Source: Asterias rubens
Taxonomy: Eukaryota
NCBI RefSeq assembly: GCF_902459465.1
Contig: NC_047066.1
Location: forward strand, 6,569,047-6,633,046
Direction: 5' to 3'
Length of the DNA stretch: 64,000 bases
Positions 18,901 to 21,900 of this stretch are shown piece after piece. The position numbers and the translations under genes were made by a program. Under the pieces are notes generated by a model, which saw only the letters and a list, made by a program, of their open reading frames with translations, was not told the DNA's origin and did no database searches. Numbering within the stretch: the stretch's first letter is position 1; each line of letters opens with the position of its first letter.

Positions 18901-21900
18901 TTGCGCCGCGTGCTGCGCCCCGGTGCTGTCTGGGATTGTCGCGCGGTTCTTTCTTTACTACTGGACCTACTGTTTGCCCTACTGCTCTTTTGACTATTAC
19001 TCTTAGACTTATTACCACCACCCTGTTTAGATCTACTCTTATGCACCTTATTTTTAGACTCCTCATTGGTGTAGGTGAAAAAGATCTCGTCCTCTTCGAG
19101 CTCAGCCTTTCTCTCCTCGGCCTCCTTCAGAGCTTGCAGGCGCTCCAGTTCCCACTCTTTCTTGGCCAACTCTACTTGTTCCTAATACCAACAAAATGGT
19201 AAAAGATCAAAACAATCAGTGTTGAATATATTTTCTAAAATAACTTGCTCAAGTATAAGGGAGTGAAGAAAATTTAGCACTAACAAGAAAGACACTAGCA
19301 GAGAAGTTTCCAGTTAAATTTAATTTTCTTAATGAAGAACAGGAATTTTTTTAAATTAATTTTGGAGAAAAAAAAATGAAAATAGTACACAAAATTCTTC
19401 GGAAAAATTATTAAAAAGTTGTGATTTACTTCAAATTGAGAATTTTATTCTTCCACAAAAAAAATTCTAACTATTTTTTTTTCCTTTTGTAAGGTTGTGT
19501 GACTATCAAACATGAAAACAATTTGAGGTGAATATTGGCATATCAGAAACAGTTGTCGTCTCTTCACATTATTATTCAGAGACCTCAACTTAAGGTCATC
19601 ACAATGCTGATAAATTGCACCACAAAATGTTCATGTACCCCTTTGTTTACAAAAGAAATTGAATTTACAAATCCTTGGCATTTCCTGGCAGGCAGGATCA
19701 TACACTGGTCATGTGGGACAATTTTTCATTTTGTATCATTACATCCACAAAAATTCAAGAAGTATACAAATTGTACATAAGCATTTTCAGTAAAATGTAT
19801 AGTTTTCTTCAATGTGGCTGTGTACAAATCATTCCTGCAGTAAGTCCAGGCTCTTGTGACGATATAAGATAAATACCATGTCACATGTACCATCTTGCTA
19901 CTGGTATTCTACTAATCTTTGCTTAGCCAAAACTGTTAAGGAAAATTGTCTGCTTAAGTAGCTCTATGAATTGTTTTTGACAATTATGAATAGATCAGCT
20001 AAAAACCCTTCACATGTCAGGTTACGCACACAGTGTTTCCGACTCGCATGGCACCGTAGACTGTACACAAGTAACACCAAAGACTGCACCCAACAATAAC
20101 TGCCAAAAGATAACTCAACCTACCTCTGCTTCCAACATCTCATCCATAGCAATCGGTTCAAGCGTAGACTCCAGATACTTCATGGCGTACTTCTCAATGT
20201 TGGTCAACTACAGAGGGACAATTTCATAGAGACATGATAAATATTTAAACCACAATTTCAGTGGACCCTTCCCATGAAATATGCTAATCACATCCACGCA
20301 TTCGTACAGACGCTATTGGTTGGCAAACGCCATGTGTTGTGCACTAAACATAACCACAAATTTCACACCTCACCAGCCCTGTCAAAAGAGCGCGATGTCC
20401 CCATTTTGCCAACCGGTACCAATACGCAAGCGTGATGTGCAAGTTAAAATATTTCATGGAAAGGGTCTATTGAAAGCAAACTTTTGCCAGGAACAGATGA
20501 GCAACTTTAGTTAGTTCAGCAAAAGTGGAAATTACCACAATGGGTTTTTCTCTATAAAAGATTCAGCAGATTGGTCACCTACGTGAATAAAATTGTTCTT
20601 ATACTAAAAGTAATCATATTCACATGAAGAATCCCAAGGATTTCTAGTCCATCCAGAACATGTCTGGATGGACACAAATTTGATTGTCCTGTTGCCTTGA
20701 ACTTGGCTCAGATAAATATGAGACTGTCTCAACACCGTCGTTAGACTCAGAGACTCTAGTCTGAAAAATCTCACATGTCATCATTGCAAAATCCCCCAAA
20801 ACAGGGCTGATACTTAATGCACAAGGATGTGATAGACTGTTGAGAAAAAAAACCACTGAACTCTGAGCGAAAAGCATGCAAGCTTTGTTTTGAAAAGCCC
20901 TACTCTGCATCAGGTTTGTTATTTTATGGTTTCATCTGAATTTTTTTAATGAATTTGATCTTAAAAAAAAAAAACCCATAAACAAACGGAATTCCGGTTG
21001 GAGGAAAATGTATGGAGGAAAAGTACAAACGACAACAGAAAAACCATGACTGATTGATTACTTGATTATCCAGCTGTGCAAGCTCAATCTCCACCTTGGA
21101 GACGTCGTCTTTGGATTTGGTCCCCTCTTCTCCCTCGTAGGGTATTGTCTCATCAAACTCGGCCAGATCAGCATCTTGCTCGGCAAGAGCCTTGGAGGTT
21201 GCCTTGACGTCCGTCTCATCTTCAGTCTTAGCCAAAGCCTAAAAGATAATAATAAATTGATAATAATTCAATAGTATGGGATTTGAGGCATTGCATGGTG
21301 AGGAATCAGTAGCAGTAGCCATATCTGTAGTCGCCAATTCGGACTCAGCCGAAGGATTTGAGAAGGATTTCTGGTCCACCCTGATCACCTCTGATCGAAC
21401 AAATATTTGATCCCCCCTGTTGCAGTGAATGGTTAGCTCAGATAAATATGAGATCGTCTCAACACCGTCTTTGGACTCAGAGACTCTAGTCTGAAAAATC
21501 TCACATGTCATCATAGCAAAATCCCCCAATACAAGAATGATAATTTATGGAGGTAATTTATTGGTGCCCCTTGCATTTCTCTCATCCTGGTGCCTTTTAC
21601 TAAGGCAGGGACGATATTTGGTCCTTTTAAAAACTTTTCAGGCTATTCAATCAACAAATTTCTGATTTTTCTTAAGGGCAAACAAATCTGAAATCAGACG
21701 AATATCATGCCTGTTGTCATGTCCTCACAAGAATGCAGTACCTCCCCCAACGTAACACGTAACAAGCAGATTTAATTTCCTAGTTGGTTGGGAGAGCTTT
21801 TAATCTCCTCAAAACATGAGACATCAAGTGACCTTACCTGTTCTAGCTGATTCTGCGTCATGACAGCCTGAGCCTCAGCAGCCGCTGCTTGCTCAGGCTT

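What the first reader, a model, noticed from the sequence alone, without database searches (positions are those of the whole stretch)
19041..19181. Candidate internal alternative 5' splice site inside the 4-kb terminal exon
The first about 45 codons of the big exon ([41 protein letters not shown]) are homologous to both SRCAP and EP400. SRCAP-like low complexity starts just after this. The putative donor AAG|GTGCAT (GT at 19046..19045, phase 0) would splice this shared segment to the EP400-type acceptor at 10625. It would make one exon both an internal exon and a terminal exon, depending on isoform.
Basis: inference. Interest (0 to 1): 0.55.

Follow-up and report, generated by a model that had tools for sequence, protein, structure and literature searches.

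The report
Dual-use exon in a domino gene

Summary
On the minus strand, AAG|GTGCAT sits at 19047|19046, exactly 45 codons (135 nt, phase 0) into the 19181..15168 exon. The 45 codons align to both human SRCAP and EP400.

The dual-use exon reading is well supported by comparison with other animals.
- The crinoid Antedon has the same 135-nt segment ending in the identical 9-mer AAGGTGCAT. Its RefSeq isoforms use that donor.
- The sea cucumber Holothuria has AAG|GTGCTT at the same codon. A spider has CAG|GTTTCT.
- 26 of 28 non-vertebrate SRCAP-type proteins retrieved carry Val (GTN, the translated donor) right after the segment.
- A 3.2-kb contig from a close relative (93% identical in exons) has the introns removed exactly at this donor.

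One detail was wrong. The donor does not join 10625 directly. It joins a conserved 33-nt microexon (11699..11667, [11 protein letters not shown]), which then joins 10625.

The likely mechanism is a composite terminal exon: a weak 5' splice site competes with polyadenylation after the SRCAP-type stop codon. This step is inferred, not shown.

This is the deuterostome counterpart of Drosophila DOM-A/DOM-B, so it is known in kind. It has modest value as evidence that the arrangement predates the split of SRCAP and EP400 in vertebrates. No RNA data from this species itself were available.

The parts
20124..20208 (-). Constitutive upstream exon ([28 protein letters not shown]). Its donor is GAG|GTAGGT, phase 0.
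   Evidence: It is joined to 19181 in the spliced contig L004.
19047..19181 (-). Shared 135-nt (45-codon) segment. It is the internal-exon form in the EP400-type mRNA and the first 45 codons of the terminal exon in the SRCAP-type mRNA.
   Evidence: The length is the same 135 nt in Antedon and Holothuria.
19041..19049 (-). Internal alternative 5' splice site AAG|GTGCAT (GT at 19046..19045). It is weak: non-consensus at +4 and +5.
   Evidence: With an approximate donor matrix it scores 5.5 bits, against a mean of 8.5 bits for 22 other donors of this gene; it is the second weakest of 23. The 9-mer is identical in Antedon; Holothuria has AAGGTGCTT. The junction is seen in L004.
15168..19046 (-). 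SRCAP-type read-through extension: 1292 codons of low-complexity sequence plus the TGA stop at 15170..15168. It is coding only when the donor is not used, and it is part of a 7347-nt intron when the donor is used.
   Evidence: Read-through open frames also exist in Antedon (857 codons), Holothuria (215 codons) and a spider.
15186..15212 (-). AT-hook-like motif KRGRGRPRK near the C-terminus of the SRCAP-type form.
   Evidence: [10 protein letters not shown] is the only block shared with the Antedon read-through frame. No Pfam match.
13736..14125 (-). Candidate polyadenylation signals AATAAA at 14125..14120 and 13741..13736, 1.0-1.4 kb after the SRCAP-type stop.
   Evidence: This is a motif match only; usage was not tested.
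11667..11699 (-). 33-nt microexon GTGTACATATCCAACACAAATGAGATCATGCCG ([11 protein letters not shown]). Its acceptor is ttccttgtttattctctccatctag| and its donor is CCG|GTAAGT. It is phase 0 at both ends.
   Evidence: Conserved 33-nt exons with splice sites exist in Holothuria (VYISQMEEVMP) and Antedon (IYISQTNKIMP). It is present in L004 and in the Lytechinus protein.
10475..10625 (-). First large EP400-type exon ([19 protein letters not shown]...KVDQ).
   Evidence: It is joined to the microexon in L004.
6118..9228 (-). Further EP400-type exons at 9228..8963, 8643..8416 (SANT/Myb-like), 7342..7203 and 6250..6118. Q-rich exons follow further downstream, to about 700.
   Evidence: The Myb-like match falls just below the Pfam cut-off.

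Best explanation
The minus strand of the window carries one SWR1-class remodeller gene of the domino type, the single invertebrate counterpart of vertebrate SRCAP and EP400. The exon 19181..15168 is a composite exon with two fates.

If the weak internal 5' splice site AAG|GTGCAT at 19047|19046 is used, only the first 135 nt stay in the mRNA. A 7.35-kb intron is removed, and it contains the rest of the exon, its stop codon and its poly(A) signals. The transcript continues through a 33-nt microexon (11699..11667) into the EP400-type exons from 10625 downward (WxPPTPP block, SANT domain, Q-rich tail).

If the donor is not used, translation reads through it; the GT becomes a Val codon. The frame continues into 1292 further low-complexity codons that end in an AT-hook-like motif. 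The transcript then ends at a poly(A) site downstream of 15168, giving the SRCAP-type protein.

Shown here:
- the sequence features and their phases;
- conservation of the donor, the 135-nt length and the microexon across three echinoderm classes;
- use of the homologous donor in RefSeq models;
- the exact junctions in an RNA-derived contig from a close relative.

Inferred:
- that both choices are made in this species;
- that the balance is set by competition between a deliberately weak donor and cleavage/polyadenylation;
- that the two proteins nucleate TIP60/NuA4-like and SWR1-like complexes, as Drosophila DOM-A and DOM-B do.
For: Gene identity:
- HSA, SNF2-rel_dom and Helicase_C pass the Pfam cut-offs on the window's exons.
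- Human EP400 and SRCAP are the best PDB matches.
- The closest full-length proteins are 'helicase domino-like' isoforms of Lytechinus variegatus (69% identity) and Antedon mediterranea (66%).

Donor:
- The Antedon locus L003 has a 135-nt segment ending AAG|GTGCAT, and its read-through frame stays open for 857 codons. The RefSeq isoforms instead continue ...REDAYNK|IYISQTNKIMP|MWAPPTPP.
- Holothuria L001 has 135 nt ending AAG|GTGCTT.
- Spider L002 has CAG|GTTTCT at the same codon.
- AATAAGGTG is invariant in the alignment, and similarity collapses right after it.
- 26 of 28 non-vertebrate SRCAP-type proteins have Val immediately after the segment.
- Nearly all of the 56 EP400-type sequences with enough upstream sequence keep the segment and the microexon-type peptide.

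Direct junction evidence:
- Contig L004 (GCA_014845345.1) matches the spliced model 20208-20124 + 19181-19047 + 11699-11667 + 10625-10475 without a gap over 401 nt at 93% identity. It reads AAATAAG|GTGTACATA at the junction.
- The same contig still carries intron sequence at both ends, so it derives from a spliced RNA.
- Two sequences from one metatranscriptome run share the same segment with the two alternative continuations.

Weak donor and terminal-exon features:
- The donor scores 5.5 bits against a mean of 8.5 bits for 22 other donors of the gene.
- AATAAA motifs lie after the stop.
- An AT-hook-like motif is shared with Antedon.

Functional split of DOM-A and DOM-B: PMC7239659.
Against: - No RNA data from this species were available. 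The junction evidence comes from relatives.
- L004 is filed as a genome-assembly contig. It could be a retrocopy or an RNA read contaminant, though either way it records splicing.
- Poly(A) site use and the SRCAP-type mRNA are supported only by the long open frame, one short conserved motif and AATAAA motifs.
- Apart from that motif, the extension shows no sequence conservation with Antedon or Holothuria and has no Pfam domain.
- The competition mechanism was not tested.
Confidence: 0.85

Rival explanations
1. One reading: the donor at 19047 joins the acceptor at 10625 directly, with no exon in between.
For: Both sites are phase 0, so the product would be in frame. It could exist as a minor microexon-skipping isoform. 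One mammalian EP400 fragment (P0046) lacks most of the corresponding peptide.
Against: A well-formed 33-nt exon lies in between, with a strong pyrimidine tract and CCG|GTAAGT. It is conserved in length and sequence in Holothuria and Antedon. It is included in L004 and in all five Antedon isoforms and both Lytechinus isoforms seen.
Confidence: 0.08
2. Full skipping: the EP400-type mRNA splices from 20124 past the whole 4-kb exon, and the GT at 19046 is only a Val codon.
For: 20124 is phase 0 and a stronger donor (9.5 bits against 5.5 bits), so skipping would also stay in frame. A phase-0 GT by itself is common: 84 in this exon.
Against: The shared segment is present in nearly all of the 56 EP400-type sequences that extend far enough upstream, including human EP400. 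L004 contains it between the 20124 exon and the microexon. The donor 9-mer is identical in a crinoid although the flanking read-through sequence has diverged.
Confidence: 0.04
3. Two separate genes: an SRCAP-type gene that ends at 15168 and an independent EP400-tail gene that starts near 11.7 kb. Some automatic annotations split the locus this way.
For: The gene models for Holothuria leucospilota and Araneus ventricosus split the locus into an upstream helicase model and a downstream 'Myb-like domain'/'p400' model.
Against: The downstream part has no HSA or ATPase domain of its own, and in other animals it is always found fused to them. L004 links exons on both sides. The downstream models start inside exons or at arbitrary Met residues.
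Confidence: 0.03

Closest known systems
[quoted passage not shown]
   Same: One gene yields an EP400-like protein (SANT domain, Q-rich tail) and an SRCAP-like protein. They share the HSA and ATPase part and differ only after a common point just past the ATPase. Arthropod relatives retrieved here break at the homologous codon (...NQ|V...).
   Different: This is a deuterostome (echinoderm-type) gene. The papers read propose the splice-variant strategy only for arthropods. I could not check the exon structure of Drosophila itself. The papers say only that DOM-B ends in exon 11, DOM-A ends in exon 14, and the first 2008 residues are shared.
RefSeq 'helicase domino-like' isoforms of Antedon mediterranea (XP_071946522-6) and Lytechinus variegatus (XP_041456347/8)
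   Same: The junction peptide is the same: 45-residue segment | 11-residue microexon | WAPPTPP. In Antedon, where the locus was read, the segment is 135 nt, the donor 9-mer is identical and the microexon is 33 nt.
   Different: Overall protein identity to the window is 66-69%. The read-through extension differs greatly in length (1292 codons here, 857 in Antedon) and in sequence. The Lytechinus genomic locus could not be fetched.
Vertebrate paralogues SRCAP and EP400
   Same: The shared segment aligns to both. EP400 keeps LLTYTREDAY + MEYVYEDVDGQTEVMP + LWTPPTPP, the counterpart of segment + microexon + next exon.
   Different: In vertebrates these are two genes, each with a single C-terminus. 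SRCAP has lost recognisable similarity beyond the first ~21 residues of the 45-residue segment.
Composite terminal exons / intronic polyadenylation (for example CstF-77 intron 3, PMC3708835; TRAP150 study, PMC4227790)
   Same: An exon with one acceptor is either spliced at an internal, weak 5' splice site or extended to a poly(A) site. The weak donor is typical of this class.
   Different: Here both outcomes encode long functional C-termini rather than a truncated product. The competition itself was not tested.

Membership tests
SWR1-class (domino/SRCAP/EP400) remodeller gene | HSA domain plus a split SNF2 ATPase (SNF2-rel_dom and Helicase_C) | tested here: met
   Pfam scores on the window's exons are HSA 80 bits, SNF2-rel_dom 277 bits and Helicase_C 91 bits, all above the cut-offs.
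SWR1-class (domino/SRCAP/EP400) remodeller gene | Closest relatives are domino, SRCAP and EP400 | tested here: met
   Human EP400 and SRCAP are the PDB matches. The top full-length hits are named helicase domino-like.
EP400/DOM-A-type C-terminus | SANT/Myb-like domain and Q-rich tail downstream of the ATPase | tested here: inconclusive
   Myb_DNA-bind_6 scores 21.6 bits against a cut-off of 22.9. The exon is 50-70% identical to the SANT region of EP400-type proteins. Q-rich open frames lie at 3.4-0.7 kb.
SRCAP/DOM-B-type C-terminus | Long low-complexity tail with AT-hook(s), ending in its own stop codon | tested here: inconclusive
   There is a 1292-codon open frame, and KRGRGRPRK is shared with Antedon. 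There is no Pfam AT-hook match.
Composite terminal exon | One 3' splice site serves both forms | tested here: met
   The acceptor is at 19182|19181. The junction 20124^19181 is seen in L004.
Composite terminal exon | An internal 5' splice site is used in one mRNA form | tested here: met
   Met in relatives only: the L004 junction and the Antedon RefSeq models on locus L003. No RNA from this species was available.
Composite terminal exon | A poly(A) site downstream of that donor is used in the other mRNA form | not testable with these tools
   Only AATAAA motifs at 14125 and 13741 were found. No 3'-end data exist here.
Microexon | A very short exon (at most about 51 nt) with canonical splice sites, conserved and frame-preserving | tested here: met
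   It is 33 nt, phase 0 at both ends and has AG/GT borders. It is conserved in two other echinoderm classes and included in L004.

The most novel reading that the evidence does not exclude
The composite exon (shared 45-codon segment, weak phase-0 donor read as Val when unspliced, then a microexon) is ancestral at least to bilaterians and possibly to all animals. Vertebrate SRCAP and EP400 would then have arisen when a duplicated domino-type gene had each copy fix one of the two splice choices, that is, subfunctionalisation by partition of isoforms. The papers read here propose the splice-variant strategy only for arthropods.
Probability: 0.6. Interest if true: 0.45.

Novelty: already known. 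Interest (0 to 1): 0.3.

Why it matters
The splice choice at this one weak donor decides whether the cell makes the scaffold of an H2A.Z-exchanging (SWR1/SRCAP-like) complex or of an acetyltransferase (TIP60/NuA4/EP400-like) complex. For annotation, the result gives the correct gene model: one gene, two C-termini and an easily missed 33-nt microexon. Several automatic annotations of other species split the locus into two genes.

For evolution, the same donor codon occurs in echinoderms, arthropods, molluscs and probably a sponge. This suggests the isoform switch predates the vertebrate duplication that produced SRCAP and EP400. That is a tidy but incremental point.

Tried and rejected
- A 123-residue junction peptide searched against the word-indexed protein database found nothing. 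The query was too short for a database of that size.
- That database seems to list only proteins under about 1000 residues. Full-length isoforms came only from the exhaustive representative search.
- Locus look-ups for Lytechinus isoforms X3 and X2 and Antedon X2 failed, because only the longest product of a gene is indexed. Antedon X1 worked.
- Pfam found no domain in the read-through extensions of the window, Antedon or Holothuria.
- BLASTP between the extensions found only the AT-hook-like block.
- An in-frame upstream extension of the 10625 exon was ruled out by a stop codon three codons upstream. That led to the microexon search.
- Other GTs just after the homology end (GTG|GTAATA, TAG|GTCCAG) are out of phase with the downstream acceptors.
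- MaxEntScan could not be run because the model tables are not available.
- The species of the window was not determined. Identities of 66-70% to a crinoid, an urchin and a sea cucumber suggest another echinoderm class; this is inference.
- The papers read do not describe the Drosophila exon structure at the junction.

Full report
**1. What is in the sequence**

The finding lies on the minus strand. After the acceptor ...ttggtattag| the exon starts at 19181 (GAA CAA GTA = EQV). It reads [45 protein letters not shown] and then AAT AAG|GTG CAT. The last base before the GT is 19047 and the GT is at 19046..19045. The span 19181..19047 is 135 nt, or 45 codons.

The upstream exon (20208..20124, [13 protein letters not shown]...LEAE) ends GAG|GTAGGT in phase 0. 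The exon at 10625 (ttggtacag|ATG TGG GCT = MWAPPTPP...) begins in phase 0. If the GT is not used, the frame stays open for another 1292 codons, to TGA at 15170..15168.

**2. The gene**

Six-frame translation of the minus strand shows the exons of one large gene running from about 49 kb to below 1 kb.
- HSA scores 80 bits, SNF2-related domain 277 bits and Helicase_C 91 bits in Pfam, all above the cut-offs.
- The 4-kb low-complexity exon follows these domains.
- Further downstream lie exons that closely resemble the C-terminal half of EP400: a WxPPTPP block, a SANT/Myb-like exon (just under the Pfam cut-off) and Q-rich exons.

A peptide built across the proposed junction aligns colinearly to human EP400 residues 2143-2295, including the shared segment. 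The part up to the shared segment aligns to human SRCAP 2244-2357. The segment really is common to both paralogues.

**3. Relatives**

The exhaustive protein search returned full-length proteins that are 69% and 66% identical over the junction region. They are helicase domino-like isoform X3 of the sea urchin Lytechinus variegatus and isoform X2 of the crinoid Antedon mediterranea. A sea-cucumber (Holothuria leucospilota) model was 70% identical over the EP400-type part. The window therefore comes from an echinoderm-type genome with a single domino-type gene. The species was not determined.

**4.

All EP400-type relatives carry about 11-16 residues between the shared segment and WxPPTPP. Examples are ...REDSENQ|VYISQTEEIMP|IWAPPTPP in Lytechinus and ...REDAYNK|IYISQTNKIMP|MWAPPTPP in Antedon. 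Human EP400 has MEYVYEDVDGQTEVMP at this place.

The 10625 exon cannot be extended upstream, because a stop lies three codons before it. A search of the intervening DNA found one site encoding ...MP followed by GT. It is a 33-nt exon at 11699..11667, GTG TAC ATA TCC AAC ACA AAT GAG ATC ATG CCG ([11 protein letters not shown]). It is preceded by ttccttgtttattctctccatctag| and followed by |GTAAGT.

Exons of the same length with canonical borders sit at the corresponding place in Holothuria (VYISQMEEVMP) and Antedon (IYISQTNKIMP). The path is therefore 19047^11699 and 11667^10625, with introns of 7347 and 1041 nt. It is not 19047^10625.

**5. Conservation of the donor**

- In the Antedon locus (L003) the shared segment is also 135 nt and ends AAT AAG|GTGCAT, the same 9-mer as in the window. 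The read-through frame there stays open for 857 more codons, while the RefSeq isoforms splice from that GT to the microexon.
- In Holothuria (L001) the segment is again 135 nt and ends AAG|GTGCTT. The annotated upstream helicase model reads through it to a stop.
- In the spider Araneus (L002) the homologous codon is followed by CAG|GTTTCT, and the annotated model reads through it.
- In the four-way DNA alignment, AATAAGGTG is invariant and similarity between the genomic sequences collapses directly after it.
- Among the proteins retrieved, 26 of 28 non-vertebrate SRCAP-type sequences that extend past this point have Val as the next residue. They include insects, chelicerates, molluscs and a cluster containing sponge proteins. 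Val is what a phase-0 GT gives when it is translated instead of spliced.
- Nearly all of the 56 EP400-type sequences that extend at least 75 residues upstream of WxPPTPP keep the shared segment.

**6. Direct record of the junctions**

One cluster member (P0264, 372 residues) is 96-97% identical (by inspection) to the window's predicted EP400-type protein. It is encoded without interruption on a 3216-nt contig of assembly GCA_014845345.1 (L004).

BLASTN against the window shows that this contig is colinear with the exon starting at 22678 and its upstream intron. It then continues with 22039.., 21240.., 20207-20123, 19183-19044, 11701-11667, 10626-10470 and 9230-8932, with the introns between them removed. 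Intron sequence is kept at both ends.

My spliced model (20208-20124 + 19181-19047 + 11699-11667 + 10625-10475) aligns to it without a gap over 401 nt at 93% identity. The junctions read GCAGAG|GAACAAG, AAATAAG|GTGTACATA and ATGCCG|ATGTGG. Because the intron and the microexon both begin GTG, only the GT-AG assignment at 19047|19046 and 11700|11699 is canonical.

Whether L004 is a partly spliced transcript that entered the assembly or a retrocopy, it records the use of this donor and of the microexon in a close relative. In addition, two sequences from one metatranscriptome run (ERR1740128) share the same segment but continue ...NQ|IWVTVDGLEAMP|IWCPPTPP and ...NQ|VKKKSGRS respectively.

**7. 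Strength of the donor and chance**

The mean for 22 other donors of this gene is 8.5 bits, and this donor ranks second weakest of 23. The Holothuria and spider sites are weak as well, at 5.4 and 1.7 bits.

Within the 4014-nt exon there are 202 GTs, 84 of them in phase 0. Only four phase-0 GTs score as high, and this is the first. The motif alone would not be convincing. Its position at the exact homologous codon, its conservation and the junction evidence are what make the case.

**8. How it most likely works**

The layout is that of a composite terminal exon. One acceptor serves two fates, with an internal weak 5' splice site and a stop codon plus poly(A) signals further on. AATAAA motifs lie at 14125 and 13741, 1.0-1.4 kb after the stop.
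- Use of the donor removes the SRCAP-type coding sequence as part of a 7.35-kb intron and gives the EP400-type protein.
- Failure to use it, followed by cleavage and polyadenylation, gives the SRCAP-type protein.

The SRCAP-type extension is poorly conserved. The only block shared with Antedon is [10 protein letters not shown], an AT-hook-like motif, and it has no Pfam domain.

A persistently weak donor fits a regulated balance, as described for other composite exons (PMC3708835, PMC4227790). This step is inference. In Drosophila the two isoforms nucleate distinct complexes: DOM-B an SWR1-like H2A.V exchanger and DOM-A a NuA4/TIP60-like acetyltransferase complex (PMC7239659). The same division here is inferred from homology.

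**9. Comparison with what is known, and novelty**

This is the orthologue of a gene whose two-isoform design is established in Drosophila. The same exon, donor and microexon layout is already present in the RefSeq Antedon models on their genomic locus, and the Lytechinus RefSeq protein carries the matching junction peptide. I therefore rate it already known.

The papers I could read suggest the splice-variant strategy for arthropods only, and a search found no paper linking it to echinoderms. The survey here places the same donor codon in echinoderms, arthropods, molluscs and probably sponges. That supports an ancestral single gene whose two isoforms were later partitioned between SRCAP and EP400 in vertebrates. 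This is a modest evolutionary point, and it may already have been made elsewhere.

**10. Limits**

- No RNA data from this species were available.
- Poly(A) use was not tested.
- The donor scoring is approximate.
- The origin of L004 is uncertain.
- The species was not identified.
- The Drosophila exon structure at residue 2008 was not checked.

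Noticed in passing
window 4263-5678 (minus strand): Two adjacent open frames (5678-5040 and 5036-4263) match the two halves of Pfam RVT_1 reverse transcriptase (E 3e-12 and 5e-4). This is a frame-shifted retroelement remnant inside an intron of the EP400-type part of the gene.
   Followed up: partly
window 58390-63999 (minus strand): An open frame of 1870 residues runs off the window end. It is acidic and lysine-rich, has no Pfam match, carries a 174-nt tandem repeat at 62544-62870 and contains a block of about 390 residues that occurs twice. It is probably a giant exon of the neighbouring gene.
   Followed up: partly
window introns near 44.7, 42.5, 41.0 and 26.4 kb; and near 38.0, 34.9 and 34.1 kb: Two interspersed repeat families recur in introns of the gene. 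They show up as near-identical open-frame fragments (...[23 protein letters not shown]... and ...[35 protein letters not shown]...). The upstream part of L004 also hits several of these places.
   Followed up: no
window about 9197 (minus strand), inside exon 9228-8963: A strong donor-like motif, ACAG|GTGAGC, lies 32 nt into this exon. The spliced contig L004 reads straight through it, so it is apparently not used there.
   Followed up: partly
window 10475/9228 junction; L004 2668-2672: The relative's spliced contig has three extra bases (GTA, one extra Val) at this junction compared with the window's best donor and acceptor. This suggests a shifted donor in that species or an alternative site 3 nt away.
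   Followed up: no
L001 (Holothuria) and L002 (Araneus): The public gene models for these genomes split the domino locus into an upstream helicase gene and a separate downstream 'Myb-like domain' or 'p400' gene. This is probably an annotation artefact caused by the composite terminal exon.
   Followed up: partly
protein P0134 (Bacillus rossius helicase domino, 2848 aa): This RefSeq model reads through the donor (...DAHNQ|VNTTPSRRGRG...) and, more than 200 residues later, still joins ...SCK|VWVSDKTSEQMP|MWCPPTPP. It may be a third splice pattern that uses a more distal donor in the extension, or a model error.
   Followed up: no
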